Numbered from the stretch's first letter, positions 19,723 through 54,818 are shown. The stretch: DNA of 64,000 nt from Nitrosopumilus sp. (GCA_965238275.1 OZ250186.1:1216001-1280000), one strand, 5' to 3'. Program-made: numbers and translations. The notes: generated from the letters alone by a model not told the origin.

Positions 19723-21507
<1,785 letters not shown>

Positions 21508-24444: not shown

Positions 24445-27400
24445 GTGGGGGCCTTGATAAACGACAACACTCCTCCCGGCAAACCGGATCCGTCAACCCT
24501 TGACGCTTTCGGATCCTCCGTGGCAGGCAATAGGCGGCCTGACGGCGACGGCACCGGACTGTCCGGGAACAGGCGTGGCGGCTCTGCGCCGCCGATCCGG
24601 CGGCAGGCCGCATTGGTGCTGGTAGCCGTGCTGCTCTCAGTCCTGGTTGCCGCGGCGGCATTCTCCGCGCCCGGCCTTGCAGACAGGTCCCAAGTCGGCG
24701 GCATTGGCGCGGGCGCGCCGGCAGGCATGCTGCCTGCGTGGGTGCCAGAACGCGCCTTTGCGCAGACCTCCCAGGATCCGCCGACGTTTGTCTCGGCCAC
24801 GCTTAACAATGGCACCGGCCTGCTGACGGTGATATTTGACAAGACGATAGACGTCGCGCAGATCGATCCCGCAAAGTTCCACGTGAGGGAGGCCGGGACG
24901 CCTGCCCACACAGTTACGCTCTCGACACCGGAGCTTGACACTACTGCGAACTCTTCGACGATCACCTTCACGCTCAACTCCGCCCACCTGGCTGCCGTGA
25001 ACGAGCTGACTACGCCCGAGCTCGTAATAGATTCGGGCGCCGTCACTGACACGAACAGCAACGCGTTCGGGGCCACCTTTGACGTCTCCACGGCCTCGTA
25101 CGAGCGCCAGTTTTCAGTCGGATCCAATGACACCAGCCCCACAGGCCTCGCCTTTGCCCCCGGCGGCATCAAGATGTTCGTCTTGGGAGACGAAAACGAC
25201 AGCGTGTACGAGTACGCGCTGTCCACGGCATTTGACATCTCCACGGCCTCGTACGAGCGCCAGTTTTCAGTCGGATCCAATGACACCAGCCCCACAGGCG
25301 TCGCCTTTGCCCCCAGCGGCATCAAGATGTTCGTCTTGGAAGACCAAACCGACAGCGTGTACGAGTACTCGCTGTCCACGGCATTTGACGTCTCCACGGC
25401 CTCGTACACGGACTTGTTTTCAATCACCGCTACAGTTACCTCCCCAACGGACGTCGCCTTTAACCCCGTCGGAACAAAGATGCTCGTCACGGAAGACCAA
25501 AACAACCGCGTGTACGAGTACGCGCTGTCCACGGCATTTGACGTCTCCACGGCCTCGTACGAGCGCCAGTTTTCAGTCGGATCCAGTGACACCAGCCCCA
25601 CAGGCCTCGCCTTTGCCCCCGCCGGCACCAAGATGTTCGTCTTGGGAGACCAAAACGACAGCGTGTACGAGTACGCGCTGTCCACGGCATTTGACGTCTC
25701 CACGGCCTCGTACGAGCACCAGTTTTCAGTCGGATCCAGTGACACCAGCCCCACAGGCCTCGCCTTTGCCCCCGCCGGCACCAAGATGTTCGTCTTGGGA
25801 GACCAAAACAACCGCGTGTACGAGTACGCGCTGGGCTCCTCCTTTGACCTGACGCTGACCGAGGAGGGCAACCGGAGGCCGACTGCCGATGCAGGAGGCC
25901 CGTACCAGCCCGTAGGCGAGGGGGACACGGTCACGCTGAACGGCACCGGCTCGTCTGATCGCGACACCGGCACCACCCTGATGTACTTGTGGAATCACAC
26001 CGGCAGCCCGGCCGTCACGCTGACCAACCCCACGACCGCGTCCCCGACGTTCACCGCGCCGGAGGTAGAACCGCCAAGCACCACGGTGAGGTTCACCCTT
26101 ACCGTATCTGACGGGAGTCTGAACCACACCGACACGGTCATCATCACGGTCAGAAACGTGGTCAAGGAACCCGTCGCCGACGCCGGCGATGACTTGGAAG
26201 TCGGCGAGAATAGCAGGGTAACCCTGTCGGGTCCTTCTGCAACCGACCCACAAAACGACTTCCTGACGTATCGGTGGACGCAAGCCCCGGCAGATGCGGG
26301 AGTGGTATTCGACAACTCCACTTCGCTGCAGCCGACCATCACCGTGCCTGCCGTGGACGCGGACACCACCATAACCCTCACCCTGACTGCCCGCGACGGC
26401 GGCAGCAATGAGGGGACTGACTCGCTTGCCCTTTTGGTAAGAGAGACGGGCACGGCGTTCATCACCACGTGGCGCACCACCGCTCCAAGCGAGTCCATAA
26501 CCATCCCTGGTACCAGCTCGTACCGCGTCATCTGGGGCGACGGCGCGGCAGACAACGAAACCAACGAGGCGACGCACGAGTACCCTAACGCCGGCACCTA
26601 CCGGGTCGTAATCACCGGCGGCCTTGAGGCGATTCGCCTGCACGACAACGCGGCCAACGCAGCCAAGCTCGCCTCGATAGAACAGTGGGGCAACACCTCC
26701 TGGACCACCATGGAGAACGCATTACGTGGCGCATCCAACATGGTCTACAACGCAGGTGATGCCCCCGACCTGTCCCGAGTCTACAACATGTCCCGCATGT
26801 TCGTCGGCGCCTCCGCCCTCAACGGCAACCTCTCCGGCTGGGACACCTCGAGCGTCACCGACATGAGATCCGTGTTCTACAACGCCACCGCCTTCAACGG
26901 CGACATCTCCGGCTGGACCACGTCGTCTGTCACGACCATGCACGCCATGTTCGCCGGCGCCTCCGCCTTCAACGGCGACATCTCCGGCTGGACCACGTCG
27001 TCTGTCACGACCATGCGCGGCATGTTCAACGTCGCCACCGCCTTCAACGGCACCCTCTCCGGCTGGACCACCTCGAACGTCACCGACATGAGCCGCTTGT
27101 TCGACGGCGCCTCCGCCTTCAACGGCGACATCTCCGGCTGGGACGTCAGGCGCGTTACCGACATGGCGCAAATGTTTTTCGGCGCCTCCGCCTTCAACGG
27201 CGACATCTCCGGCTGGACCACGTCGTCTGTCACGACCATGCGCGGCATGTTCCAGAGCGCCTCCGCCTTCAACGGCGACATCTCCGGCTGGACCACCTCG
27301 GACGTCACCGACATGGCCGGCATGTTCCACAGCGCCACCGCCTTCAACGGCAACATCTCCGGCTGGAACGTCTCGTCTGTCACCACCATGCGCGCCATGT

Positions 27401-30400
27401 TCAACGTCGCCACCGCCTTCAACGGCACCCTCTCCGGCTGGACCACCTCGAACGTCACCGACATGGCCGCCATGTTCGCCGTCGCCTCCGCCTTCAATCA
27501 GGATCTCAACGACTGGGACACCTCGTCTGTCACGACCATGAGTGACATGTTCGCCCGCGCCTCCTCCTTCAACCGGGACCTCTCCGACTGGGACGTCAGG
27601 CGCGTTACCGACATGGCGCAAATGTTTTTAGGCGCCTCCGCCTTCAACGGCGACATCTCCGACTGGAACACGTCGTCTGTCACGACCATGCGCAGCATGT
27701 TCCAGAGCGCCACCGCCTTCAACCAAGACCTCGACGACTGGACCACCTCGGACGTCACCAACATGGCCGGCATGTTCAACGCCGCCACCGCCTTCAACGG
27801 CAACATCTCCGACTGGGGCACCTCGAGCGTCACCGACATGGCATTCATGTTCTCAAATGATGATATACACAACGACACCGCCTTCAACCAGAACCTCAAC
27901 GGCTGGGACGTCTCGTCTGTCACCACCATGCGCGCCATGTTTGCCTATACCTCTGCATTCAATCAGGATCTCAACGACTGGGACACCTCGTCTGTCACCG
28001 ACATGGCATACATGTTCGACGTCACCGCCTTCAACGGCGACATCTCCGACTGGGACGTCTCGTCTGTCACCAACATGACATACATGTTCCGGCAAACCGA
28101 GGCCTTCGACCGGAACCTCGGAAAATGGTACACCACGCCTGGCGCCGTCACCGTAAACCCCACTACCCTCCCCGGACAGGTCACCACCCTGTCCGCCCAG
28201 AACGCCATCTTGGACGGACACAGCCCGACCTACGCGATAGGGACCGGCCACGACTCGATCCTCTTTGAGATCACCGGCGGCAACGTCCTGAACATGACTG
28301 AGGCCAATCCCGCCTGCACCCCCTGCACAGTCAACGTGACTGCCACGGGAACCCTCTTTGGGAGCGACAGCAGCTACAGGCTCATCTCGGTGAATCTGGT
28401 CGACGAATCCCACTTCGTCACCATCTGGGAGACGACTGCTGCAGACGAGGAGATAAGATTCATCAGCCACGGCGAGTTCAACGTGGACTGGGGCGACGGC
28501 ACATCAGACAATGACCTCACCGGAGACAGGCAAACACGCACGCACACGTATGACCGCGTCGACACGTACACCGTGACAATGTCAGGCCAACCCGAGCGAA
28601 TCTACTCGACTTCTGCCAACATCCGCTCCATCGAGCAGTGGGGTGACATCGGGTGGACGAGCATGAACTCCATGTTCTATGATGCTGCCAACTTGGTATC
28701 CCGCGCAACCGACGTACCGGACCTCTCGGGCGTGGCATCCACAGCCGATATGTTCGCCGGCGCCTCCTCCTTCAACGGCGACCTCTCCGGCTGGGACGTC
28801 TCGTCTGTCACCGACATGGTCTCCATGTTCGAAGGCGCCTCCGCCTTCAACGGCGACATCTCCGGCTGGAACGTCTCGTCTGTCCGCTACATGGGAAACA
28901 TGTTCGACGGCGCCTCCGTATTCAACCAGACCCTCAACGGCTGGGACACCTCGAGAGTCACCACCATGCTCCGCATGTTCGCCGGCGCCTCCGCCTTCAA
29001 CGGCAACATCTCCGGCTGGGACGTCTCGTCTGTCACCGACATGGTCTCCATGTTCGAAGGCGCCTCCGCCTTCAACGGCGACATCTCCGGGTGGACCCCC
29101 TCGAGCGTCACCCAAATGGGAAGCATGTTCTGGCGCGCCACGGCATTCAACGGCGACATCTCCGGGTGGGACGTCAGACGCGTCACCACCATGCCCAACA
29201 TGTTCTTCGGCGCCACGGCATTCAACGGCGACCTCTCCGGGTGGATCCCCTCGAGAGTCACCACCATGAACGGCATGTTCGCCGGCGCCTCCTCCTTCAA
29301 CGGCGACATCTCCGGCTGGAACGTCTCGTCTGTCCGCTACATGGGAAACATGTTCAACGGCGCCGCCTCCTTTGACCAGCCCCTCAACGGCTGGAACGTC
29401 TCGTCCGTGACTGACATGTCCAGCATGTTTGACGGCGCCGAAATGTTCCATCAGAACCTGGGCAACTGGTACGTCGTGATAGATAACACTACCATCGACC
29501 GATCCGAAATAACGCCGGCAGCCGTCCGCGGCATAGCCGCGCAAAACGGCTTCCTCGGGAACCACAACGCCACGTACGGCATCGGCCCCGGCGGCGACTC
29601 GGACCTCTTTGAAATCTCGGCTGACAACATGCTCCGCATGGTCTCGCAGGGCAGCAGGGACTCATACACGGTCAACATTACCGCCTCGGGCCAACACGTG
29701 TTCGAGGGCGAAAACAACTGGCGCGAGGTAAGTGTGATGCTGATCGGCTCCCACGACCCCGACGCGTTTGTCACCACTTGGAAGACTGGCAGTAACGACG
29801 AGTCCGTAACCATCCCGGGCACCGGGAGCTACATGGTCGACTGGGGCGACGGCACCGCCGGCACCTCCGAAGCGGACGACGCGACCCACACGTACAACGA
29901 CGCCTATACCTACAGGGTCTCGATCACCGGCGACCTTGAGCGAATAGACCTGAGCGGCGACCCGGACAACGCGGACAAGATCGTGTCGATAAACCAGTGG
30001 GGGACGATCTCTTGGACCACGATGGAGGATGCCTTTGCAAATGCCAGAAACATGCAATACAGCGCAACCGACGCCCCGAACCTCTCGGGCGTGGCGTCCA
30101 CAGGCGATATGTTCAACGGCGCCTCCTCCTTCAACGGCGACATCTCCGGGTGGGACGGTCTGTCACCGACATGAACAACATGTTCGGCGCCACGGTCAAC
30201 CGACATGTCACCGACATGAACAACATGTTCAACGGCGCCACGGCATTCAACGGCGACATCTCCGGGTGGGACGTCTCGTCTGTCCTCAACATGAACGGCA
30301 TGTTCAACTACGCCATAGCCTTCAACGGCAACATCTCCGGGTGGGACGCCTCGTCTGTCCTCAACATGGGCCAGATGTTCAGCAGCGCCACGGCATTCAA

Positions 30401-33400
30401 CGGCGACATCTCCGGGTGGACCCCCTCGAGCGTCACCCAAATGGGAAGCATGTTCTGGCGCGCCTCCTCCTTCAACGGCGACATCTCCGGCTGGAACGTC
30501 TCGTCTGTCACCGACATGCCCAACATGTTCTTCGGCGCCACGGCATTCAACGGCGACATCTCCGGGTGGACCCCCTCGAGAGTCACCACCATGAACGGCA
30601 TGTTCGCCGGCGCCTCCGCCTTCAACGGCGACCTCTCCGGCTGGAACGTCTCGTCTGTCACCGACATGGCCTCCATGTTCGAAGGCGCCTCCGCCTTCAA
30701 CGGCGACATCTCCGGGTGGGACACCTCGAAAGTCACCGACATGCACCGCATGTTCAACGGCGCCTCCGCCTTCAACCGGGACCTCTCCGGGTGGGTCGTT
30801 GTAATGGTGGAACGCATGGCTGGAATGTTCGTCGGCGCCACCTCATTCGACCAGAACCTGGGCAACTGGTATGTCGTGCTGCACGGCACGGCAATTAACC
30901 GGTCAGGCGTCCCCGGGTTCGTCGGCAACATATCGGCGCAGAATACTCCACTTGACGGCCACTCTCCCGCGTATCGCATAGGCGAAGGCGGCGACTCACC
31001 CAGATTCACCGTAACTGGCGACAACATGCTCAACATGGCCTCTGTAGATGACAGCACAATGGTGCATACGGTCAACATTACCGCCTCGGGTGCGAACGTA
31101 TTTGAGAACGGAAACAACTGGCGCGAGGTGAACGTGACGGTGACAGACGGCCCGGTCCCGACCATATCGTCTGATGTGGGTCCTGACGGCACCATTACAA
31201 ACGCCGCCCGGATTCCGTTCAGCGTGTCGTTCAACGAGGCCGTGACCGGATTCACCACCTGGAACCCCACCGTGAACGGCACCGCTGGCGTGGACGCAGT
31301 GAGCCCCGTTGTCGGCATCGGCGCGGGCCCGTACACTTTTACCGTCACGCTAGCCTCAAGCGGCACCGTGATTGTCAGCATACCTGCAGGCGTGGCCTTT
31401 GACTCCAACAACGACCCCAATGTCGAGGCCGGCCCGTTCACCATAACATACGACGGCACGGCACCGTTTATCGTGGATCGTGAAATCCCGCAGTCCCCCA
31501 CAAACGCCGCTAGTGCCACGTTTACTGTCACCTTTAGCGAGCCGGTCACGTTCGTGGGAGACATCGTGGTTAGCGGCGGCGGCACGGCCGACCCCCCGCG
31601 TCCGGCGGGTACGGCAGAAGAATCCTTCACCTTTACGGTGGAGCCTGACATTGAAGACACTGACACTGCCCTCACAGTGATAATCCCGGCAGGCGCCGTG
31701 CGGGATGCTGCCGGAAATACCAACGCCGCGCCCGCGTCATCTGCCATCAGGTTTGACCACGTCGCGCCGACAGTGAAATCCCTCTCCACGCTGGTGCCGT
31801 CCCCCACAAACGCCGCTAGTGCCGAGTTTACTGCCAACTTTAGCGAGCCGGTCACGTTCGTGGAAGACATCGTGGTTAGCGGCGGCGGCACGGCCGACCC
31901 CCCGCGTCCGGCGGGTACGGCAGAAGAATACTTCACCTTTACGGTGGAGCCTGGCATTGAAGACACTGACACTGCCCTCACAGTGACAATCCCGGCAGGC
32001 GCCGTGCGGGATGCTGCCGGAAATACCAACGCCGCGCCCACGTCATCTGCCATCAGGTTTGACCACGTCGCGCCGACAGTGACATCCCTCTCCCTGACCG
32101 ATTCGTCCCCAGACGGCTCAAGCGCTACTTTTACTGCCGTCTTTAACGAGCCGGTCACGTTCGTGGGAGACATCGATGTAACCGGCGGCACGGCCGACCC
32201 CCGGCGTCCGGAGGGTAAGACAGAATTATTCACCTTTACGGTAACTCCCACGGGCAGATCCATAGTTACCGTACAGATCCCCCAAGACGCCGTGCAGGAT
32301 GATGTCGGAAACTACAACGACCTGGCATCCGAGGAGGCCACGTTTGACCCGAACGGGTTTCAAACCCGAATCACGACTGAGCCTAAATCCCCCACCACTG
32401 AACGATCCGTGGACTTTACGGTGATCTTTGAGGATGCCCCCGATGACGACAACTATTCCCCCTTCGAAACAGACGATATATTGGTCAATTTCCAACCGCC
32501 CACATCACCCGCATCATTCACAAGCGACCCCGCCCAATCCAACGCCACCACCTACACGTTCGGCCTGGGCGGGCTCAACGGCACCTACAAAGTGGCAGTC
32601 AAAGGCGGCGCCGTGTTCAACGCCGATGGAACCCCCAACGCGGCCGCAAGCGCCGACGTGCTCGTGGACCTCGTGCCCCCCGACATCACGTACTCTGGCA
32701 TGACGACTATCCCGATCGGGAACCCGGTCCCGACGGCCACGTGCACAGACGCACTTGACCCTGACCCCGCCCTGAGTCGCACCGACCCTGACCCTAACCC
32801 CCACCTGGATCCACCCGACCCCAAAACATTTGAAAATGAGGGAGGCTCCGCCGTGACGTACACGTGCACGGATTGGGTCGGCCACTCCTCTACCCTGCAA
32901 GCCCAGTTTACCGTCACAAACGACCCCCCGGAACTCCGTTCGGCACTGCTCAAAAAGGGCTCCATGGAGCTGGTTCTCCGGTTCGACGAATCAGTCACGC
33001 CCCAAGATCCCATTGGAAAAATGTGGGTGCACGACACGGGCAACACTACCCGCGTGGTGGTAATGGGAGACGTTTTACTACGTCAGGGAGAATACCCCCT
33101 CAGCACCGTCACGATAGGCCTTAACGTTGCAACCCTTGACGCCATCGGGGACATGGGCAGGCCCCAGATTGACATTGGGCGGGACGCGTTTGTAGACAAG
33201 TACGGAAAGCAGATGAAGGAGGGCGGCGTCTCAAACCACACGATCAGGTTCCCGTCCTCGGGCGGCGGCGGTGACAGGGATCAGACGCCCCCGGTGATCG
33301 ACCTTGGCACCCTGCGTTCCCTGAACGTGATCCCGCTGCCAGAACGCGTGGAGCAGCTGCTCGAGTCGTACGACCGCAACGTCCCCCTCTCCCCGGTGGC

Positions 33401-35753
33401 AAATCCCGGGCCGTTTGGCTTTCCGCTGACCATTAACGGGGACGCGTACGCGCTAGGATCCCCGCACAGCACGCTGATCCCCAAAAACGTCGCAGCGGGC
33501 CTCCCCGCGACGATCGAGTTTGTCGTCTACGAGGAGTCCTACCTGTCCCACTTTACGCTGTACATGAACCTGCACGGCGGCAACGCGCTGTACCACAAAA
33601 GCGACACCCACGTACGGTACACCGCCGCCGCCGCCGCCGAGACCAGGATCACAGACCCGCACGGGTACATCCAAGACGCGTCCGTGGAAATAACGAAAGA
33701 CTCCTCCCCGATGACAGTCACGATCGTCGCGGAGTTTGCCGAGGCGATGGGAATGACCAACATGGCCGTCCGGACGTGGGATTCCGGGGGGAACGTGGCG
33801 GATCTGCGCGTGCTTGACGCCATTCGGGTAGTGGCCGCAGGAAGCGACGCCCTGGTGGACCCGGAGCCGTGCGGCGAGGACTTCGGCACGGTGGCGGCTG
33901 GCGCGGCAGGATCAGGCGCGCCGTATGTGGATCCCGAGCCGGACGTGGATCAGGAACCTGGGGTGGATCAGGAACCTGGGGTGGACCCCGAGCCGGTCAT
34001 GGATCTGGAGCCTAGGGTGGATCCTGAGCCCTGCGCTGAACCCGAAGCCGCACCCGATCCAGAACCCGAAGCCGCACCCGATCCAGAACCCGAAGCCGCA
34101 CCCGATCCAGAACCCGAAGCCGCACCCGAGTCCGCCATGGATCCGGGATCCGCACCGGACTACTCCGGGCTGTTAGAATCCCTGGGCCACTCCGAGACAG
34201 ACGTTCCGGACTGGGTGCTGGAGCAGCTGGGGCCGCTTGTGGTGCGGGGGCAGATCGGCATGGACGAGTTTGAGGCGGCAGTACAGTTCGTGCTGGGACC
34301 CGCACCTGGACCCGAGGCCGCACCTGGACCCGAGGCCGCACCTGGACCCGAGGCCGCACCTGGACCCGAGGCCGCACCTGGACCCAAGCCCGCGCCGGAA
34401 CCCGTGGTCACACAGGAGCCCGCCATGGATCCGGGATCCGCACCGGACTACTCCGGGCTGCTCGAATCCCTGGGCCACTCCGAGACAGACGTTCCGGACT
34501 GGGTGCTGGAGCAGCTGGGGCCGCTGGTGGCCCATGGGCAGGTCGGCATGGACGAGTTCAAGGCGGCGATACAGTACGTGTTGGGGCACGGGCCGGAGCA
34601 CGGGCCGGTGTACGGGCCGGAACACGCCCCCCCTGAATCCGCGGCAGCCGCGGCCCCTCCACCGGAGACCGGCTCGCCCGGGCAGAACCTGGGAATGTGG
34701 TACGTGGTCCCGGCCGACACCGAGTACGACCTCGGCGAGGCGTCCCTCAACGTCACGACGATATCTGCGCAGAACGCGTTCCTTGACGGGCACGACCCGG
34801 ACTACGGCATCGGCGACGGCGGCGACTCGCGCCTCTTCAACATGACCGGCAGCACCCTGATGTTCAAAGAGGAGCCTGCCTCTAACGGCACCTACGAGGT
34901 CAACGTGACGGCTTCAGGCGGCTACCTCGGCTCCGGCAACCACCGCGTGCTGGCAATAGAGGTCACCGGATTCGACTTGACGTCGTTTGTGACCACGTGG
35001 GAGGTTTCTGTCCCCGGCGGCACCGTGACGATCCCGACAGGCGGCGCCGGCGGCACATACTCTGTGGACTGGGGCGACGGCCTGGCCAGCGAGAACGTCA
35101 CGGGCGACTCAAAGCACGCGTACGGCTCGGCCGGCACGTACACCGTCTACATCTCCGGGAACTTTTCGAGGATACACCTGGGCGACGCGGCGCTTGCAGA
35201 CGCGCAGGCCAACGCGGCAAAGCTGCGATCCGTGGAGCAGTGGGGCGACGCGGAATGGGCCTCGATGGCCGGCGCCTTTGCCGGCGTCTCCAACATGGCA
35301 TACAACGCGCATGACGCGCCCGACCTGTCCGGCGTGGCCGACATGTCCCACATGTTCCACGGCGCCTCCTCGTTTGCAGGCGACCTGTCTGGCTGGGACG
35401 TCTCGGCCGTCCAAGACATGTCCCACATGTTCCACGGCGCCTCCTCGTTTGCAGGCGACCTGTCCGGCTGGGACGTCTCGGGGGTCGATGACATGTCCCA
35501 CATGTTCCACGGCGCCTCCTCGTTTGCAGGCGACCTGTCCGGCTGGGACGTCTCGGGGGTCGATGACATGTCCCACATGTTCCACGACGCCTCCTCGTTT
35601 GCAGGCGACCTGTCCGGCTGGGACGTCTCGGCCGTCCAAGACATGTCCCACATGTTCCACGACGCCTCCTCGTTTGCAGGCGACCTGTCCGGCTGGGACG
35701 TCTCGGGGGTCGATGACATGTCCCGCATGCTGGACGGTACTAGCTATGGGTAA
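24445..35753 (+). CDS. Surface protein 2 (about 3,750 aa if joined; frameshift at about 30157-30215): propeller repeats, PKD/Ig domains, four DUF285/BspA blocks, internal anchor-like module
   Basis: ORFs 24445..30174 and 29997..35753 continue the same 25-aa repeat ([18 protein letters not shown]); leader ends RAFAQ; start codon uncertain. Confidence 0.82.
34038..34390. repeat. Pro/Glu linker minisatellites: 24-bp (PEPEAAPD) x4 and 18-bp (PGPEAA) x about 5
   Basis: Directly visible tandem repeats either side of the first anchor-like domain. Confidence 0.9.
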
Positions 35754-35875
35754 AACACGATGCTTGACGGTGACTCCTCCCTTGATTGCAACCCTGGCAG
35801 CTGGCGTGTTGTGCAGGATCATGGGCAAAAAGGCACCCGGCATGATGGGAACGATGGGGGGGGGGAGATGACAAG

Positions 35876-41800: not shown

Positions 41801-44800
41801 GGCGTCACCGGCAACCAAAACCACACGTACGCTAACGCCGGTGACTACACAGTCACCATCTCAGGCGACTTTGAGAGGATCCGCCTGAACGGCGCCGCCG
41901 GGTCAGGAGGCACCACAGCAGAGCAAGACAACGCGCGACAGCTCCTGTCCATAGACCAGTGGGGGACGATTTCTTGGACCAGCATGAGAGGCGCGTTTGC
42001 GGGAGCCTCCAACATGGAATACCGCGCAGTCGACGCCCCCGACCTGTCCAGAGTCCTCAGCATGTCAAGCATGTTTGTCGGCGCCGCCTCCTTTGACGGC
42101 GACCTCTCCGGCTGGAACCCCTCGTCTGTCACCACCATGACAAACATGTTCAAAAATGCCACCAACTTTGACGGCGACATCTCCGGCTGGAACCCCTCTA
42201 GCGTCACCTCCATGTCCCACATGTTCTACGGCGCCGACTCGTTCAACCGCAACCTCTCCGGCTGGGACGTCTCGTCTGTCACCTCCATGTCCCACATGTT
42301 CGAAGGCGCCACCAACTTTGACGGCGACATCTCCGGCTGGAACCCCTCGTCGGTCACCTACATGAACAACATGTTCGACGGCGCCGCCTCGTTCAACGGC
42401 AACCTCTCCGGCTGGGACGTCTCGTCGGTCCACCTCATGTTCCGCATGTTCGAAGGCGCCGCCTCCTTTGACGGCGACATCTCCGGCTGGAACCCCTCTA
42501 GAGTCACCTCCATGTCCCACATGTTCTACGGCGCCGACTCGTTCAACCGCAACCTCTCCGGCTGGGACGTCTCGTCTGTCACCGACATGCGCCACATGTT
42601 CGAAGGCGCCGCCTCCTTTGACGGCGACATCTCCGGCTGGAACCCCTCTAGAGTCACCTCCATGTCCCACATGTTCTACGGCGCCGACTCGTTCAACCGC
42701 AACCTCTCCGGCTGGGACGTCTCGTCTGTCACCAACATGACAAACATGTTCAAAAATGCCACCAACTTTGACGGCGACCTCTCAGGATGGAACCCCTCTA
42801 GCGTCACCACCATGGAAAGCATGTTCGAACAAGCCATCTCATTCAACCGCAACCTCTCCGGCTGGAACGTCTCGTCTGTCACCGACATGCACAGCATGTT
42901 CAGAGGTGCCACCTCATTCAACGGCGACCTCTCCGGATGGAACCCCTCTAGCGTCACCACCATGGAAAACATGTTCGAACAAGCCATCTCATTCAACCGC
43001 AACCTCTCCGGCTGGAACCCCTCTAGCGTCACCACCATGCTTCGCATGTTCTACGGCGCCGCCTCGTTCAACGGCACCCTCTCCGGCTGGGACGTCTCGT
43101 CTGTCACCGACATGCGCCACATGTTCGAAGGCGCCGACTCGTTCAACGGCGACATCTCCGGCTGGAACGTCTCCGGCGTCAGGGAGATGAATGACATGTT
43201 CAAAGGCGCCACCAACTTTGATCAGAACCTGGGGCTCTGGTATGTCGTGCCTGATGATGCCACCCCCACCGTAGACCGCGCCGACCTCCCAGGAAACGTC
43301 GCCACCCTGTCCGCCCAGAACGGGTTCCTTGACAGACACAACCCGCACTACGCGATAGGGACCGGCCACGACTCGGCCCACTTTGGGATCATCGACGGCA
43401 ACGTCCTGAACATGACCACGGCCAATCCCGCCTGCACCACCTGCGCCGTCAACGTGACTGCGTCAGGCGACGCGGTATTTGAGGACGGCAACAACTGGAG
43501 GATCATCCGGGTGATGCTGATCGGCGAAGCCCTCGCCTTTGTCACCACCTGGCAGGCCACCGACGCCGACAGGACCATAACCATCCCCGTCGGCGACTCT
43601 GTAGCCCCCTACGACGTCCACTGGGGCGACGGAACGACCGGGGATGGCCTCACCGGCAACCAAAACCACACGTACGCTGACGCCGGCAACTACACAGTCA
43701 CCATTACAGGCGGCTTTGAGAGGATCCGCCTGAACGGCGCCAACGGGTCAGGAGGCACCACAGCAGAGCAAGACAACGCGCAACAGCTCCTGTCCATAAA
43801 CCAGTGGGGGGGCGTCTACTGGGCAGACATGGCAGACGCGTTTGCCGGAGCCTCCAACATGCAATACCTCGCCACTGACGCCCCCGACCTGTCCAGAGTC
43901 ACCCACATGAACAACATGTTCAGAGGTGCCTCCTCATTCAACGGCGACCTCTCCGGCTGGGACGTCTCGTCTGTCACCCACATGAACAACATGTTTACAC
44001 TCGCCAAAGCCTTCAACGGCGACATCTCCGACTGGAACCCCTCTAACGTCACCGACATGTACGGCATGTTTTCAAGCGCCAGAGACTTCAACGGCGACAT
44101 CTCCGGCTGGAACACCTCGTCTGTCACCACCATGTACGGCATGTTCGATAAAGCCTCCTCATTCAACGGCAACCTCTCCGGCTGGAACGTCTCGTCGGTT
44201 ACCTCCATGCACAGCATGTTCAGAGACGCCGACTCATTCAACGGCGACCTCTCCGGATGGAACCCCTCTAGCGTCACCACCATGACAAACATGTTCGAAC
44301 AAGCCATCAAATTTGACGGCAACCTCTCCGGCTGGAACGTCTCGTCGGTCACCACCATGACAAACATGTTCAAAAAAGCCACCAACTTTGACGGCGACCT
44401 CTCCGGCTGGAACCCCTCTAGCGTCACCACCATGACAAGCATGTTCGAACAAGCCACCAACTTTGACGGCGACATCTCCGGCTGGAACTCCTCCAGCGTC
44501 ACCCACATGAACAGCATGTTCGAAGACGCCAGAGACTTTGACGGCGACATCTCCGGCTGGGACACCTCGCGCGTCACCCACATGTCAAGCATGTTTGCCG
44601 GCGCCACCAACTTCAACGGCGACATCTCCGGATGGGACACCTCGTCGGTCACCACCATGACAGGCATGTTCGCCGGCGCCACCAACTTCAACGGCGACAT
44701 CTCCGGCTGGAACCCCTTGAGCGTCACCAGCATGCGCAGCATGTTCGAAAGCGCCTCCAAATTCAACCAGGACCTCTCCGGCTGGAACGTCTCGTCTGTC

Positions 44801-47800
44801 ACCGACATGCGCAGCATGTTCAAATTCGCCTCCTCCTTTGACGGCGACCTCTCCGGCTGGAACCCCTCGAGCGTCACCAGCATGCGCAGCATGTTCGAAG
44901 GCACCACCCAATTCAACGGCAACCTCTCCGGCTGGGACACCTCAAAAGTCACCGACATGGACTTTATGTTTGACCGCGCCACCGACTTCAACGGCAACCT
45001 CTCCAGCTGGGACACCTCAAAAGTCACCAACATGAGGGGCATGTTTGACCGCGCCACCGACTTCGACGGCAACCTCTCCGGATGGGACACCTCGTCTGTC
45101 ACCAAGATTCAACGCATGTTCGAAGGTGCCACTTCCTTCAACGGCAACATCTCCGGGTGGGACACCTCGTCTGCCCGCGACATGCACAAAATGTTCTCCG
45201 GCGCCGCCGCCTTCAACCAGGACATCTCCGGCTGGAACGTCTCGTCTGCAACCGCCATGACAGACATGTTCAACGGCGCCGCCTTGTTTGATCAGAACCT
45301 GGGAAACTGGTATGTCGTGCTGGATGACGCGCAGATCGCCAGAACCGACGTCCCCGTCCCTATCGGTGACATAACCGCCCAGAACGGGTTCCTTGACGAA
45401 CACCGCCCCACGTATGCAATAGGCCAAGGTGGCGACCCGAACTTTGAGATAAGCGGCACCGAACTCCGCATGAAAAACGCGACTGCCGGTAAATACTCGT
45501 ATGTAGTCAACGTGACTGCCTCAGGCAACAGGGTATTTGAAGACGGCAACAACTGGAAGGTGGTTCGGGTGACTGTGACAGGCAACACCGCCCCGGAGGT
45601 GGAGGCCGGCCCAGACCGGAGCGTAGCCGAGAGATCGACTGTCTACCTTGACGGGACAGTCACGGAGCATGATCTCGCAGACGCCCTGACCTACAAGTGG
45701 ACGCACGCCCCGGACCTCGGCATCACGCTTGCAAACAGCACGGCCGTCTACACCACGTTTACGGCGCCCAACGTGGCCGCAAACACGACAGTCACCTTCA
45801 CCCTGACGGTAAACGACGGCACCGCGTCAGTCTCTGACTCCATGATACTCACCATCACCGACAGCGAAAATACCCCCCCGACGGGCGTGGACGCCGGGGA
45901 TCCCCAGACCGCGCCGGAGGGCTCGCCTGTCACGCTCGCGGGGACTGCCATGGATAAGGACCCCGAGGACGTCCCCAACCTGGCGTACTCTTGGTCGCAC
46001 AACTTCACCGGCACCACCATAACGCTCACTAACGGGGATACCCTGGCGCCGTCGTTTGAGGCACCCGACGTCGCATCAAACACGACAGTCCAGTTCACCC
46101 TGACGGTAAACGACGGCACCGCGTCAGTCTCTGACTCCATGATACTCACCATCACGGACAGCGAAAACAGTCCGCCGGTAGTGAATGCAGGCGACGACCA
46201 GAGGGCAGCCGAGGGCTCGACTGTCACACTCGCGGGGACGGCCACGGATGATGACCCCGAGGACGTCCCCAACCTGGCGTACTCTTGGTCGCACAACTTC
46301 ACCGGCACCACCATAACGCTCACTAACGGGGATACCCTGGCGCCGTCGTTTGAGGCACCCGACGTCGCATCAAACACGACAGTCCAGTTCACCCTGACGG
46401 TAAACGACGGCACCGCGTCAGTCTCTGACTCCATGATACTCACCATCACGGACAGCGAAAACAGTCCGCCGGTAGTGAATGCAGGCGACGACCAGAGGGC
46501 AGCCGAGGGCTCGACTGTCACACTCGCGGGGACGGCCACGGATGATGACCCCGAGGACGTCCCCAACCTGGCGTACTCTTGGTCGCACAACTTCACCGGC
46601 ACCACCATAACGCTCACTAACGGGGATACCCTGGCGCCGTCGTTTGAGGCACCCGACGTCGCATCAAACACGACGGTAAGGTTCACCCTGACCGTCTCTG
46701 ACGACACGGAGGAAGTGTCAGACGCCGTCGATGTCACCATCACCGACGTGCCGCCCCCGCCTGACGCATTCGTCACCACCTGGACCACCGACGTCCCCAA
46801 CCAGACCGTGACCATCCCGGCTTCTGGCACCTACGACATCGACTGGGGTGACGGCATGACAAATGCCAGCGCCACCAACAGCAGCGCCCACACGTACGCC
46901 GTGGAAGGCAACCACACGGTCGCCATCACCGGCGGCCTTGAGGGGATCCGCCTTACCCCTCCCCCTCTCGAATACGACGATCAGAAAGCAGGCAACGCGA
47001 TGCGGCTGGCCTCCATAGACCAGTGGGGAAACGCCACCTGGACCACCATGGAGCGCGCGTTTGCCGGAGCCACCAACATGGAATACCGCGCCACAGACGC
47101 CCCCGACCTGTCCGGGGTGGGCAGCATGTCTGACATGTTCATGAGTGCCCGGCAGTTTGACGGCAACCTCTCCGGGTGGAACGTCTCGTCTGTCACCGAC
47201 ATGGGCAACGCGTTCAACGGCGCCGCCTCATTCAACGGCGACCTCTCCGGGTGGAACGTCTCGTCTGTCACCGACATGGGCAACATGTTCAACGGCGCCG
47301 CCGCCTTCAGCCAGGATCTTGACGGTTGGAACACCTCGTCAGTCACCGACATGCGCAGCATGTTAAGCTACGCCACCGTCTTCAACGGCAACCTCTCCGG
47401 TTGGAACGTCTCGTCTGTCGAGAATATGGGCGGCATGTTCTACCACGCCGCCGCCTTTGATGGCAACCTCTCCGGATGGGACACCTCGTCAGTCACCGCC
47501 ATGTCCAGCATGTTCAACGGCGCCACCGTCTTCAACGGGAATCTCTCCGGGTGGAACACCTCGAACGTCGCCGACATGAGATTCATGTTCCTCAACGCCG
47601 CCGCCTTCAACCAGGACCTCTCCGGGTGGGACGTCTCAAGCGTGACTCGCATGATGCAAATGTTCTCCAATGCTGACGCCTTTGTTCAGAACTTGGGAAA
47701 CTGGTACGTGGTGCTTGATGACGCGAGCATCAACAGGGCCTCCGTCCCAGGGATCGTCGGCGACATATCGGCGCAGAACGACTTCCTTGGGAACCACAAC

Positions 47801-50800
47801 GCCACGTATGCAATAGGCCAAGGCGGCGACCCGAACTTTGAGGTAAGCGGCACCGGACTCCGCATGGAAAACGTGACTGCCGGCAAATACTCGTATGAAG
47901 TCAACGTGACTGCCTCAGGCGGCGCGGTGTTTGAGGACGGCAACAACTGGAAGGTGGTTCGGGTGGATGCGGCAGGCAACACCGCTCCGACGGTAAGCGC
48001 TGGGGACGACCAGAAAATAGCCGAGGGCTTGACTGTCTACCTTGACGGCACTGCAACCGATTTGGAACCCGAGTATCCACTGATGTATGACTGGATGCAC
48101 AACTCGACTTTGGCGATCCAGTTGGGGAACAGATCCGCAGTCGACACCTCGTTTACGGCCCCCAACGTGGCCGCAAACACGACGATAAAGTTCACGCTGA
48201 CAGTAGACGACGGCACCGCGCCAGTCTCTGACACCGTCGATGTCACCATCACGGACAGCGCAAACACCGTCCCTGAGGTGGACGCAGGCGACGACCAGAC
48301 CGCAGTCGAGGGCTCGACTGTCAACCTGAACGGCACCGCAACCGATTTGGATCCCGAGGACGTCCCCCTCCTGACGTACGAATGGTCGCACAACTCCACG
48401 CTGGTCATATCCCTTGACGACAACGCGATACTCGACCCCGAGTTCACCGCCCCCAACGTCGCCGAGGACACAGTGGTAAAGTTCACACTGACTGCAACTG
48501 ACGGCATGACGCCAGTTGCCGCCTCGATGCTGCTGATCATCACCGACAGCGCAAACACCGCCCCGGTAGTGGACGCAGGCGAAGACCAGAGCGTCCCAGA
48601 GGGCTCGACTGTCAACCTGGACGGGACGGCCACGGATCCTGACACCGAGGACACCCTGGAATACACTTGGTCGCACGACTCGACGCTGGCGATCCAGTTG
48701 GGGAACAGCTCCGCCGTCGACACCTCGTTTGATGCACCCAACGTGGCTGCAAACACGACAGTCACCTTCACCCTGACAGTGTATGACGGCATGGCCACGG
48801 TGCAAGACACGATGCTGCTCCACATCGCCGACAGCGCAAACACCGTCCCTGAGGTGGACGCAGGCGACGACCAGACCGCAGTCGAGGGCTCGACTGTCAA
48901 CCTGAACGGCACCGCAACCGATTTGGATCCCGAGGACGTCCCCCTCCTGACGTACGAATGGTCGCACAACTCCACGCTGGTCATATCCCTTGACGACAAC
49001 GCGATACTCGACCCCGAGTTCACCGCCCCCAACGTCGCCGAGGACACAGTGGTAAAGTTCACACTGACTGCAACTGACGGCATGACGCCAGTTGCCGCCT
49101 CGATGCTGCTGATCATCACCGACAGCGCAAACACCGCCCCGGTAGTGGACGCAGGCGAAGACCAGAGCGTCCCAGAGGGCTCGACTGTCAACCTGGACGG
49201 GACGGCCACGGATCCTGACACCGAGGACACCCTGGAATACACTTGGTCGCACGACTCGACGCTGGCGATCCAGTTGGGGAACAGCTCCGCCGTCGACACC
49301 TCGTTTGATGCACCCAACGTGGCTGCAAACACGACAGTCACCTTCACCCTGACAGTGTATGACGGCATGGCCACGGTGCAAGACACGATGCTGCTCCACA
49401 TCGCCGACAGCGCAAACACCGCCCCGGTAGTGGACGCAGGCGAAGACCAGAGCGTCCCAGAGGGCTCGACTGTCAACCTGGACGGGACGGCCACGGATCC
49501 TGACACCGAGGACACCCTGGAATACACTTGGTCGCACGACTCGACGCTGGCGATCCAGTTGGGGAACAGCTCCGCCGTCGACACCTCGTTTGATGCACCC
49601 AACGTGGCTGCAAACACGACAGTCACCTTCACCCTGACAGTGTATGACGGCATGGCCACGGTGCAAGACACGATGCTGCTCCACATCGCCGACAGCGCAA
49701 ACACCGCCCCGGTAGTGGACGCAGGCGAAGACCAGAGCGTCCCAGAGGGCTCGACTGTCAACCTGGACGGGACGGCCACGGATCCTGACACCGAGGACAC
49801 CCTGGAATACACTTGGTCGCACGACTCGACGCTGGCGATCCAGTTGGGGAACAGCTCCGCCGTCGACACCTCGTTTGATGCACCCAACGTGGCTGCAAAC
49901 ACGACAGTCACCTTCACCCTGACAGTGTATGACGGCATGGCCACGGTGCAAGACACGATGCTGCTCCACATCGCCGACAGCGCAAACACCGCCCCGGTAG
50001 TGGACGCAGGCGAAGACCAGAGCGTCCCAGAGGGCTCGACTGTCAACCTGGACGGGACGGCCACGGATCCTGACACCGAGGACACCCTGGAATACACTTG
50101 GTCGCACGACTCGACGCTGGCGATCCAGTTGGGGAACAGCTCCGCCGTCGACACCTCGTTTGATGCACCCAACGTGGCTGCAAACACGACAGTCACCTTC
50201 ACCCTGACAGTGTATGACGGCATGGCCACGGTGCAAGACACGATGCTGCTCCACATCGCCGACAGCGCAAACACCGCCCCGGTAGTGGACGCAGGCGAAG
50301 ACCAGAGCGTCCCAGAGGGCTCGACTGTCAACCTGGACGGGACGGCCACGGATCCTGACACCGAGGACACCCTGGAATACACTTGGTCGCACGACTCGAC
50401 GCTGGCGATCCAGTTGGGGAACAGCTCCGCCGTCGACACCTCGTTTGATGCACCCAACGTGGCTGCAAACACGACAGTCACCTTCACCCTGACAGTGTAT
50501 GACGGCATGGCCACGGTGCAAGACACGATGCTGCTCCACATCGCCGACAGCGCAAACACCGCCCCGGTAGTGGACGCAGGCGAAGACCAGAGCGTCCCAG
50601 AGGGCTCGACTGTCAACCTGGACGGGACGGCCACGGATCCTGACACCGAGGACACCCTGGAATACACTTGGTCGCACGACTCGACGCTGGCGATCCAGTT
50701 GGGGAACAGCTCCGCCGTCGACACCTCGTTTGATGCACCCAACGTGGCTGCAAACACGACAGTCACCTTCACCCTGACAGTGTATGACGGCATGGCCACG

Positions 50801-53800: not shown

Positions 53801-54818
53801 GCCATGGACGCCCTCCTGTCGTACAACGCGTCTGCGCCGCTTGGGCCGGTGGGTGGTTCGGTAGCGCTTGGCTACCCGTCGCCGCCCCAAACAAATAGGT
53901 GCCTGCCGGGCACCAATGCGGGCCTTGACAGCGCCGCAGATGCGTTTGACTACCCGCTCCGGATAAACTCAGCCGAGTACGCGCTTGGCGGGCTGGCCAA
54001 CACGCTCGTGCCGCACGAGATAACGTCGGGGGAGACCGCCCTGGTCGGGTTTACGGCCTACGAGTCTACGGAGATTGTCCATTTTGCGCTGTACCTTAAC
54101 CTGCGCGACGACTCGGCATCGTACGCCGAGAGCGACACGCACGTCGCGTACAACCACGGAAAAGTCACGGTATCCGATCCGCACGACTACGTCGCGCACG
54201 CCTCGATCACCGTGGAGCCCGACGGGGCGCTGCCGTACAAAAAGACGATCCGCGTTGTGGTGGAGTTCAACGGCGGCGGCGGGGACGGCCACGCCGGGGT
54301 GAGGCATGGGCGTGACCAACATGGTCGCGCGCATGTGGGACTCTCATGGCGGCCTCACGAGCATACTCGTGTTTGACGCGCTTGACGTGGTTGGCAGGAC
54401 CGTGTTGGACCCCGAGCCGGGAGCCCCGACCGGTACGCTGCCGCCCTGGATGGACCCGGAGCCTGGCCAGACCGGCGCGCTGCCGCCCTGGATGGACCCG
54501 GAGCCTGGCCAGACCGGCGCGCTGCCGCCCTGCGTGGACCCCGAGCCCGTGCTGGAACTCGAGCCCGGCGTGGATCCCGAGCCCGGCGTCGCCGCGGGGG
54601 GCTTTAGCGCGTCCGAACTGCAGACGCTCCGGGACTGGGGCGGCTACTCGTCTGTGTACCTCGACGATGCGGGGTTCCTGGAGGCGTTCGGATTCCAGGG
54701 TGCGTCAGTCCCCGGCTACTTCAAGGGAATGGCAAAGTGGTTCCTAGACGGCACGCTGGACAGGCAGGACCTGATTAATGCGCTGTCATACCTGGAAGGA
54801 CGGGGGGTGCTGGGATAG
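35876..54818 (+). CDS. Giant surface protein 3 (6166-aa ORF plus frameshifted tail 54306..54818): S8 subtilase, six DUF285/BspA blocks, FN3, about 20 PKD-like repeats, Ig/DUF5011-like domains, C-terminal module
   Basis: S8 motifs VAVIDS, HGGLVA, SAGNSG, GTSFSAP; 25-aa repeats; PVVDAGEDQ repeats; tail MGVTNMVARMWD matches [12 protein letters not shown] of protein 2. Confidence 0.88.
49127..52217. repeat. Eleven consecutive, apparently identical 285-bp units (95-aa PKD-like domain); preceded by a 576-bp duplication (48260-49411)
   Basis: Unit starts at 49127, 49412, 49697, 49982, 50267, 50552, 50837, 51122, 51407, 51692, 51977; last unit diverges at its end. Confidence 0.95.

What the first reader, a model, noticed from the sequence alone, without database searches (positions are those of the whole stretch)
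26455..47960. Ten capped DUF285/BspA solenoids built from mosaically shuffled 75-bp units: a possible VLR-like combinatorial surface repertoire
Seen: each block has an N-cap (FVTTW..DWGDG..SIxQWG..DAPxLS) and about 3-19 units with a fixed frame (FNGD(I/L)SGW...VT.M..MF) and hypervariable positions. All but the last block of protein 2 have a C-cap (NLG.WY...LSAQN...VNVTA...GNNW). Specific variants recur non-adjacently and across blocks: [15 protein letters not shown] (~29095, ~30420), [26 protein letters not shown] (~29190, ~30515), [12 protein letters not shown] (~27140, ~27590), SVRYMGNMF (~28880, ~29330). Framework codons are nearly invariant. Inference: gene conversion or template switching at sub-repeat scale diversifies a binding face, analogous to lamprey VLR assembly. 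The DUF285 family is known; I do not know of this diversification being described in archaea.
Basis: partly seen in the sequence, partly recalled or inferred. Interest (0 to 1): 0.75.

Follow-up and report, generated by a model that had tools for sequence, protein, structure and literature searches.

The report
Reshuffled repeat surface proteins in archaeon
A marine archaeon carries giant surface proteins whose 25-residue repeats have swapped pieces over evolutionary time while a few exposed positions became very diverse, much like fungal immune receptors, but nothing shows lamprey-style antibody assembly in each cell.

Summary
Ten PKD-capped DUF285/PARCEL arrays (92 units; 88 of 89 regular units distinct) lie in giant secreted proteins of a Nitrosopumilaceae-type archaeon, one with a subtilase.

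Units are mosaics. Synonymous variants 1-2 codons apart are never incompatible (0 of 19); those 4 or more apart are (50 of 132, free recombination 0.40). Blocks 2 and 3 have 44%-identical caps yet share a ~265-nt tract. A fixed-boundary duplication tree is rejected. Codons 15, 17, 18, 21, 22 carry 11-17 residues where neutral simulations give 3-5. An alignment-based model is LRR-like; the binding face is only inferred.

The VLR analogy is not supported. The genes are complete, no silent cassettes, reverse transcriptase or deaminase were found, and in close relatives 10 of 17 near-identical blocks keep identical arrays.

The best reading is ordinary homologous recombination plus diversifying selection, as in Podospora HNWD repeats. 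The signature recurs in other Nitrosopumilaceae, in co-occurring bacteria and in 4 of 8 unrelated DUF285 arrays. The family and its presence in sponge thaumarchaea are published; my searches found no unit-level description of this process. Ligand unknown.

The parts
24445..30174 (+). ORF 1 (1909 aa): N-terminal hydrophobic segment, 153-bp beta-propeller-type repeats, two PKD domains, DUF285 blocks 1, 2 and the start of 3
26458..28370 (+). Block 1: PKD/N-cap, 17 units (26818-28104; one of 90 nt, one of 72 nt), C-cap
28414..29730 (+). Block 2: N-cap, 8 units from 28771 plus a terminal unit at 29371, C-cap
29071..29335 (+). Tract copied between blocks 2 and 3 (partner 30396-30660, offset 1325), with a 69-nt exact match and an internal replaced patch
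29767..31130 (+). Block 3: N-cap, 9 units (first one broken), C-cap; spans the ORF 1/ORF 2 frameshift
30155..30215 (+). Garbled partial copy of the next unit with several small deletions; shifts the frame (assembly artefact or real lesion, not resolved)
29997..35753 (+). ORF 2 (1918 aa as called): rest of block 3, Ig-like repeats, proline-rich repeats, orphan C-cap, block 4
34686..35753 (+). Orphan C-cap (34686), N-cap (34986) and block 4: 5 units, 95% alike, no C-cap; units 1-4 show all four combinations of two variants
35876..54376 (+). ORF 3 (6166 aa): N-terminal hydrophobic segment, S8 subtilase, DUF285 blocks 5-10, FN3, PKD arrays
36659..37435 (+). S8 subtilase domain; Asp, His and Ser motifs at 36674, 36809, 37328
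   Evidence: (E 3.7e-28); triad motifs recalled
38267..39880 (+). Block 5: 8 units (38642-39241); C-cap split by FN3 (about 39335-39577)
39908..40738 (+). Block 6: 2 full units
40766..41671 (+). Block 7: 3 full units; C-cap 98% nt-identical to block 6
41693..43507 (+). Block 8: 15 units, partly a two-unit pattern; holds the only identical unit pair
43538..45565 (+). Block 9: 18 units; N-cap like blocks 6-8, C-cap like block 10
46769..47959 (+). Block 10: 7 units; modelled as an LRR-like solenoid, pLDDT 89.9
48525..53081 (+). 285-bp PKD array in ORF 3 with ten consecutive identical copies (internal control: homogenised without diversity)

Best explanation
These are secreted multidomain proteins carrying tandem LRR-like DUF285/PARCEL solenoids that act as variable binding modules, in ORF 3 tethered to a subtilase. 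About 90 near-identical 75-nt units recombine by ordinary homologous recombination: unequal crossing-over or conversion within an array and conversion-like tract transfer between arrays and genes. This keeps the framework DNA alike, and so able to recombine again, and reassorts patches of a few codons. Point mutations at exposed codons 15, 17, 18, 21, 22 and 24 are kept by diversifying selection. The process runs over strain-to-species time, with no dedicated enzyme. Shown: mosaicism, inter-block transfer, homogenised synonymous sites, excess amino-acid diversity, predicted LRR-like fold. Inferred: selection rather than targeted mutation, the binding role, the concave-side location, a sponge-symbiont lifestyle and host or phage ligands.
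For: Four-gamete test on synonymous variants: 0 of 19 pairs incompatible at 1-2 codons, 50 of 132 at 4 or more; within-block free recombination 0.40; a clonal tree needs about 3 origins per allele. Linkage falls from 0.147 at lag 1 to 0.005-0.017 at lags 10-24; synonymous-anchored 0.185 to about 0.01, permutation sd 0.02 or less. Fixed-boundary duplication gives 0.09 incompatibility and 61% identical units against 0.38 and 2% observed. Blocks 2/3: N-caps 44% aa, 57% nt identical, yet a colinear ~265-nt tract with a patch that leaves and rejoins the diagonal. 84 of 89 units have their nearest neighbour in the window; dominant synonymous codons differ between genomes. Heterozygosity-based omega 9, 31, 18, 35, 6, 7 at codons 15, 17, 18, 21, 22, 24 and 0.3 or less at ten framework codons; neutral simulations give 3-5 residues at these sites against 14. 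Codons 18, 21 and 22 exceed 1 in all 9 genomes tested, two of them bacterial. In 66 block pairs from related proteins these sites diverge 2.4-11 times faster than caps, with multi-residue patches in pairs whose caps differ by 2% or less. All 50 top structural matches of the alignment-based model are LRR proteins, best Z 15.6, rmsd 5.8, 279 aligned. Synonymous sites are saturated in 4 of 8 unrelated DUF285 arrays, so low synonymous diversity is not a fixed constraint of the family.
Against: The PHI-type test was significant for 2 of 7 subsets (B1, B8) and 0 of 3 whole-set runs. A first simulation with codon resampling reproduced the long-range linkage and distances without recombination. No simulated model matched all statistics at once. 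The copying model found as many segments in permuted data (103) as in real data (106), so segment counts say little. The omega estimate assumes neutral synonymous sites, but GCC at 23 is near-fixed in all nine genomes. Caps are under purifying selection, so faster divergence than caps is not itself positive selection. Only 8 of 38 multi-residue patches have an exact copy elsewhere in the same protein. In one MAG 19 of 24 units have their nearest neighbour in another genome. The variable sites are mostly small polar residues, aromatic about 5%. The single-sequence model was a beta-helix instead. No ligand, expression or conspecific data.
Confidence: 0.68

Rival explanations
1. Programmed, VLR-like or cassette-conversion generator: a dedicated mechanism reassembles units so that cells of one population display different solenoids.
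For: Sub-unit patches and cross-block donors (62 of 106 painted segments have a donor in another block); switch points in 22 of 25 codon phases; almost no identical units (2 of 89); a garbled partial unit in block 3 of the kind a mixed read pool could leave; a tyrosine recombinase 5 kb upstream of ORF 1.
Against: Complete coding arrays and no silent cassette cluster in 64 kb. No reverse transcriptase or deaminase among 108 ORFs scanned (95 of 237 small ORFs from related loci plus 13 window ORFs, E 1e-10); shared neighbours are transposases. 24 of 57 block pairs with caps at least 95% identical have identical arrays and 1 differs in length; 10 of 17 identical and 6 of 66 length changes in the non-redundant set. 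All units on one strand and no inverted repeats in the arrays.
Confidence: 0.08
2. Neutral by-product: repeat slippage homogenises the DNA, and exposed positions merely tolerate any polar residue; the arrays are spacers or stalks.
For: The genome homogenises other repeats too (ten identical PKD copies). Roske et al. left neutrality open (section 6 of PMC2996958, read). Variable sites are mainly small polar residues.
Against: At matched synonymous diversity neutral runs give 3-4 residues and mean distance 8 codons against 14 and 12.7. Near-invariant GCC at 23 sits between hypervariable codons 21-22 and 24-25, so escape from conversion does not explain them. The PKD array became identical, the DUF285 arrays did not.
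Confidence: 0.17
3. Diversity-generating retroelement or other targeted hypermutation writes the variable codons.
For: Many variable codons end in C (84 of 89 at position 15); A is the commonest base at their first two positions (378 of 1068).
Against: Framework adenines are kept (ATG 88 of 89 and 86 of 89); G is nearly as common as A (338); no reverse transcriptase among scanned ORFs; C-ending codons are the norm in these genes. DGR rules are recalled.
Confidence: 0.04
4. Assembly artefact: chimeric units made by mis-assembly of repeats.
For: Two frameshifts in the cluster (about 30160 and about 54300) and ten identical PKD copies.
Against: 88 of 89 units are distinct and in frame with conserved structural residues; the same statistics appear in independent assemblies and in isolate plasmids.
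Confidence: 0.03

Closest known systems
DUF285 / PARCEL repeat proteins (PF03382, TIGR02167; RefSeq name 'BspA family leucine-rich repeat surface protein'); Roske et al. 2010, PMC2996958 (abstract, section 6 and passages read)
   Same: 25-residue tandem unit, conserved hydrophobic and variable polar positions, mostly unique units, membrane targeting, mobile context; intragenomic shuffling and variant reservoirs were proposed there.
   Different: That paper saw none in archaea, predicted helices, and in the parts read ran no unit-level recombination or selection test ('gene conversion' and 'mosaic' 0 hits). Here up to six capped arrays sit in one protein with a subtilase, and the model is LRR-like.
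DUF285 in sponge thaumarchaea; Haber et al. 2021, PMC7848895 (passages read)
   Same: DUF285 found in 2 thaumarchaeal symbiont genomes and listed as a eukaryote-like domain enriched in sponge metagenomes.
   Different: Presence only in the passages seen; no array structure or diversification. Its supplements were not read.
Podospora anserina HNWD WD40 repeats (het-d, het-e, het-r); PMC1805685 (abstract and first part of discussion read), PMC2873952 (abstract)
   Same: About 70 units under concerted evolution within and between loci, four codons under diversifying selection, rearrangements that create new units, homogenisation that keeps repeats able to recombine.
   Different: Intracellular NLR with NACHT and HET domains and a beta-propeller; rearrangement shown in mutants. 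Here a secreted archaeal LRR-like solenoid with unknown ligand and no experimental rate.
Lamprey variable lymphocyte receptors; PMC12264053 (passages read)
   Same: Capped LRR solenoid with variable unit number and sub-unit mosaic sequences.
   Different: VLRs are assembled somatically from an incomplete germline gene and many donor cassettes with CDA deaminases; none of these is seen here.
FNIP/FGxxFN LRR proteins of CroV; PMC9525666 (passages read)
   Same: [quoted passage not shown]
   Different: 22-residue unit, viral; the DUF285 segment between VxxM and FN is three residues longer (my hand alignment).
Xanthomonas TAL effector repeats; PMC5512977 (abstract)
   Same: Prokaryotic near-identical repeats with a few specificity codons, evolving by substitution, recombination and repeat deletion.
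   Different: DNA-binding, two variable residues, known code.

Membership tests
DUF285/PARCEL | Profile match above curated cut-off | tested here: met
   PF03382 355-1467 bits (cut-off 25); TIGR02167 145-504 bits (cut-off 30)
DUF285/PARCEL | Tandem 25-residue units, conserved hydrophobic and variable polar positions | tested here: met
DUF285/PARCEL | Dyad symmetry of the coding DNA | tested here: inconclusive
   Consensus unit matches its reverse complement at 34 of 75, shuffled mean 31.7, 23% reach it; method differs from the paper's MEME search
DUF285/PARCEL | Membrane or secretion targeting | tested here: met
   N-terminal hydrophobic segments in ORF 1 and ORF 3 by hydropathy scan; no signal-peptide predictor run
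LRR solenoids | LRR-like fold | tested here: met
   Predicted only: pLDDT 89.9; 50 of 50 top VIA rows are LRR proteins, Z 9.9-15.6; Foldseek best E 0.0014; the single-sequence model differed
LRR solenoids | Canonical LxxLxLxxNxL segment | tested here: not met
   Unit consensus lacks it; motif as given in PMC9525666
HNWD-type repeat diversification | Concerted evolution within and between loci | tested here: met
HNWD-type repeat diversification | Few codons under diversifying selection | tested here: met
   approximate single-site estimate, no formal site model
HNWD-type repeat diversification | Selected sites cluster on the interaction surface | tested here: inconclusive
   Sites 12-25 form one contiguous half-turn; strand bridge at position 15 in every turn; coordinates not available
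HNWD-type repeat diversification | Repeat number and order polymorphic among conspecific isolates | tested here: inconclusive
   No conspecific allele found (window protein P0021 is a one-member cluster); relatives show 6 of 66 length changes
HNWD NLR family | NACHT plus HET domains and WD40 sensor | tested here: not met
   it works like HNWD repeats but is not a member
VLR system | Incomplete germline gene with non-coding intervening sequence | tested here: not met
   Arrays lie in 1909-6166 aa ORFs
VLR system | Separate donor cassettes | tested here: not met
   All 92 units found on the + strand lie in the ten blocks; rest of the genome not seen
VLR system | AID/APOBEC-type deaminase | tested here: inconclusive
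   None in 108 neighbouring ORFs; whole genome not available
VLR system | Cell-to-cell diversity of assembled genes | not testable with these tools
   No reads; indirect evidence against
Diversity-generating retroelement | Adenine-specific variation from a template repeat | tested here: not met
   rule recalled
Diversity-generating retroelement | Linked reverse transcriptase | tested here: inconclusive
   None in scanned ORFs; not every ORF scanned
Invertase shufflon | Inverted recombination sites around variable segments | tested here: not met
   25 longest of 47 inverted repeats seen; none pairs two arrays

The most novel reading that the evidence does not exclude
Symbiotic archaea and co-resident bacteria share an LRR-based repertoire of binders that is reshuffled fast enough to differ between cells inside one host, under selection from host immune receptors or viruses, and some arrays aim a tethered subtilase at changing targets: a prokaryotic counterpart of an anticipatory receptor repertoire. 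The garbled unit in block 3 would then be the trace of a mixed population.
Probability: 0.12. Interest if true: 0.88.

Novelty: new variant of a known kind. Interest (0 to 1): 0.52.

Why it matters
DUF285 is a widespread family without a solved structure (no repeat match) or known ligand. If the reading holds, it is a family of evolvable binders with about six specificity codons, diversified by the route known from fungal NLR repeats, now in archaea and bacteria. That gives a testable handle on how animal-associated ammonia-oxidising archaea recognise or evade hosts and viruses, and a natural LRR-like scaffold with mapped variable positions. It is not a new dedicated diversification machine on present evidence, and the signature is not special to this window.

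Tried and rejected
PHI-type test on all units: not significant, probably because variable sites cluster. Codon-resampling simulation: could not separate models. Homology-gated conversion and crossover: did not improve the joint fit. Copying-model segment counts: same in permuted data. Whole-unit palindromy: not above shuffles. Single-sequence fold: beta-helix, set aside for the alignment-based model. Sequence search of solved structures: 0 hits for block 9, only weak PKD hits for the profile; no VLR chain among the listed fold rows, which excludes nothing. No conspecific genome among 26 related loci: the longest nucleotide matches are 63-69% identical. Cluster members could not be listed, so alleles within 90% identity were not seen. 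Metagenome and IMG/VR contigs stayed unchecked. Literature: ten searches; 63 and 86 (repeat conversion plus selection in archaeal or bacterial surface proteins) returned 0 papers; others gave no listing on unit-level DUF285 diversification; 40 of 54 DUF285 papers were listed and most seen only as listings; the library lacks most subscription papers, and no supplements were read. Preprints 10.1101/527234 and 10.1101/2023.03.21.533155 were seen as passages and added nothing on unit shuffling. Dropped before counts: 3 of 92 window units (broken or off-length); OZ241884 subsampled to 100 units and left out.
Full report
Setting. The window begins with core genes that include a 3-hydroxypropionate-CoA ligase above its equivalog cut-off and an archaeal DnaG. 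Syntenic copies at 54-71% identity lie in a contig titled Thaumarchaeota archaeon isolate TS. The organism is therefore a Nitrosopumilaceae-type ammonia-oxidising archaeon (inference). After several transposases and a tyrosine recombinase comes a cluster of large genes with N-terminal hydrophobic segments. A host-associated lifestyle is inferred from the relatives' titles and from PMC7848895; it is not shown.

Anatomy. Ten blocks are present. Each starts with a PKD domain and a lead-in, then 2-18 full 75-nt units, then (except block 4) a C-terminal region that probably holds a cadherin-like domain. The same three-domain combination occurs in Bacteroidota clusters. Blocks 1-3 start in ORF 1; a garbled partial unit at about 30155-30215 shifts the frame, so ORF 1 and ORF 2 are probably one gene. 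Blocks 5-10 lie in a 6166-aa ORF with an S8 subtilase, FN3 and PKD arrays. The repeats match DUF285 and TIGR02167 far above cut-off. Of 89 regular units 88 are distinct; entropy is 2.4-3.5 bits at positions 15, 17, 18, 21, 22, 24, 25 and under 0.5 at eleven of the twelve... framework positions 1, 6, 7, 8, 11, 13, 16, 19, 20, 23 (ten positions).

Are the units mosaics? That tract is the best single piece of evidence: the N-caps of blocks 2 and 3 are 44% identical in protein, yet about 265 nt of repeats are colinear with a 69-nt exact match, and one patch leaves the diagonal, matches another junction for 50 nt and returns. Caps are also reassorted: block 9 has an N-cap 84-88% nt-identical to blocks 6-8 and a C-cap closest to block 10 (82%); block 1's C-cap is 78-80% identical to those of blocks 6-8 while its N-cap is 63-64%. 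In block 4 four units show all four combinations of two variants. With synonymous variants only, 0 of 19 pairs 1-2 codons apart and 50 of 132 pairs 4 or more apart are incompatible; within-block free recombination gives 0.40, and a clonal tree needs about three origins per allele. Linkage falls from 0.147 at one codon to about 0.01 beyond ten. Forward simulations reject fixed-boundary duplication (0.09 incompatibility, 61% identical units; observed 0.38 and 2%). Variable-boundary crossover and long conversion tracts both give about 0.4 but too many identical units (14-24%); short tracts lose the adjacent-codon linkage. So mosaicism is shown, and the mechanism inside an array is not resolved. 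Against: the PHI-type test was significant in 2 of 7 subsets and 0 of 3 whole-set runs; a codon-resampling null could not reject clonality from long-range linkage alone; painted segment counts equal those of permuted data, although the real data fit far better (Viterbi -2876 against -3600).

Is the diversity selected? Units with the same residue differ in codon in 0.10-0.30 of pairs against 0.47-0.64 expected; diversity at nine four-fold sites is 0.19. From that, a neutral codon should show about 3.4 residues; positions 15, 17, 18, 21, 22 show 14, 17, 11, 15, 13, with heterozygosity-based omega 9, 31, 18, 35, 6. Neutral simulations give 3-5 residues. GCC at position 23 (83 of 84) sits between variable codons, which argues against local escape from conversion. 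A PKD array in the same ORF has ten identical copies. Caveats: the estimate assumes neutral synonymous sites, some of which are alike in all genomes, and no formal site model was run.

Structure. A 50-row alignment gave a model of block 10 with pLDDT 89.9 and pTM 0.84. All 50 top structural rows are LRR proteins, best Z 15.6, with a Bacteroides LRR protein (4fs7) at 13.1 and the FNIP protein 7zal at 12.7; these are moderate scores for repeats and Foldseek found nothing at E 0.001. The model has a strand bridge at position 15 in every turn. Aligning by hand on the shared FNQxI core with FNIP repeats, where LxxLxF forms the concave strand and the residues before FN are the most variable, at its edge (passages of PMC9525666), puts 15-18 on the concave side and 21-25 on its edge. 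A mapping to the recalled TpLRR consensus would put them on the other side. The variable sites are one contiguous half-turn in either case; which face is open.

How general? A scan of species-representative genomes gave 26 loci: Nitrosopumilaceae and Thaumarchaeota MAGs plus Poribacteria, Pseudohongiella and Spongiihabitans records, with arrays of up to 29 units. Units mostly cluster by genome (84 of 89 for the window; one MAG is an exception, 5 of 24), and in OZ241884 5 of 24,670 pairs from loci over 40 kb apart differ by 3 nt or less against 0 of 150,405 cross-genome pairs (whole-block duplication was not excluded there). Positions 18, 21 and 22 have omega above 1 in all nine genomes tested. 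Of 8 unrelated arrays picked from plasmid and phage hits, 4 (Aliivibrio, Jannaschia, Salinibacter, Thiomicrorhabdus) show the same state, synonymous diversity 0.13-0.16 against background 0.61-0.74, and 4 are saturated. The process is a recurrent state of the family, not a property of this archaeon.

How fast? No conspecific sequence was found. Among 298 blocks in 111 of 134 related proteins, 57 pairs have both caps at least 95% identical; 24 have identical arrays and 1 differs in length. In 66 non-redundant pairs, 10 of 17 with caps under 1% apart are identical, 6 of 66 differ in length, and the six variable positions diverge 0.023, 0.059, 0.129, 0.336 against 0.002, 0.022, 0.053, 0.104 for caps; some near-identical pairs differ by a patch of 5-9 residues. 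These records are unnamed, so some pairs may be one strain or recent paralogues. The pattern fits patchwise change over strain divergence, not renewal in each cell.

Machinery. No reverse transcriptase or deaminase appeared among 108 ORFs scanned; transposases are the only recurring neighbours. Framework adenines are kept and G is as common as A at variable sites, unlike a DGR (rule recalled). No inverted repeats pair the arrays, so the upstream recombinase is more likely an island integrase (inference).

Comparison with print. PARCEL/DUF285, its variability and possible recombination among variant reservoirs were described in 2010, when no archaeal case was known (PMC2996958). DUF285 was later noted in two sponge thaumarchaeal genomes (PMC7848895). 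Concerted evolution plus diversifying selection on a few codons of a repeat is established for Podospora HNWD genes (PMC1805685, PMC2873952) and is the closest working analogue. VLR assembly needs features that are absent here (PMC12264053). My ten searches found no paper showing this process for DUF285 units or for an archaeal surface protein, within the limits of the library.

Verdict. Real feature; known family; known kind of mechanism in a new setting. New variant of a known kind, interest 0.52. Most novel reading not excluded: a within-host, fast-turning binder repertoire, probability 0.12.

Noticed in passing
window 30155-30215: A partial copy of the next unit with several small deletions; unit spacing 116 nt, between one and two units. 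Could be a consensus of reads with and without an extra unit.
   Followed up: partly
window ~54280-54310: Second frameshift: the conserved C-terminal region of ORF 3 continues in the ORF at 54306-54818.
   Followed up: partly
window 22733-23383, 25078-25833, 56171-57190, 63347-63924: 153-156 bp propeller-type repeats. The two arrays measured differ at 24-27% of residues but only 5-15% of synonymous codons, possibly the same HNWD-like process in a second fold.
   Followed up: partly
window 48525-53081: Ten consecutive identical 285-nt PKD copies; recent expansion or assembly effect.
   Followed up: partly
window 34686-35753: Orphan C-cap, N-cap and a divergent five-unit block appended after the proline-rich C-terminal region of ORF 2, with its own codon dialect; looks like a captured fragment.
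   Followed up: no
window 39251-39677: FN3 domain inserted inside the C-cap of block 5.
   Followed up: no
window 19723-21507: XerC-like tyrosine recombinase with a low-complexity tail over a GCA repeat (21254-21386), upstream of the surface-gene cluster.
   Followed up: partly
window 14959-16260, 59169-60503, 17843-18812, 57750-58620: ISH3/IS4-type and DDE_Tnp_4-type transposase genes, some split, on both sides of the cluster.
   Followed up: no
L009, L020, L024, L021: The same capped block architecture in Poribacteria, Pseudohongiella and Spongiihabitans records at 39-46% identity in the cap junction, suggesting transfer between archaea and bacteria; no tree was built.
   Followed up: partly
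P0001-P0014: A family of 3600-6100 aa proteins, most with several DUF285 blocks and 9 of 14 with an annotated S8 domain.
   Followed up: partly
L034 1190-20443: A Vibrio phage gene of about 6400 codons with at least 49 DUF285 units and saturated synonymous sites.
   Followed up: no
window 42070-43221: Block 8 alternates two unit types (150-nt period), a higher-order repeat.
   Followed up: no
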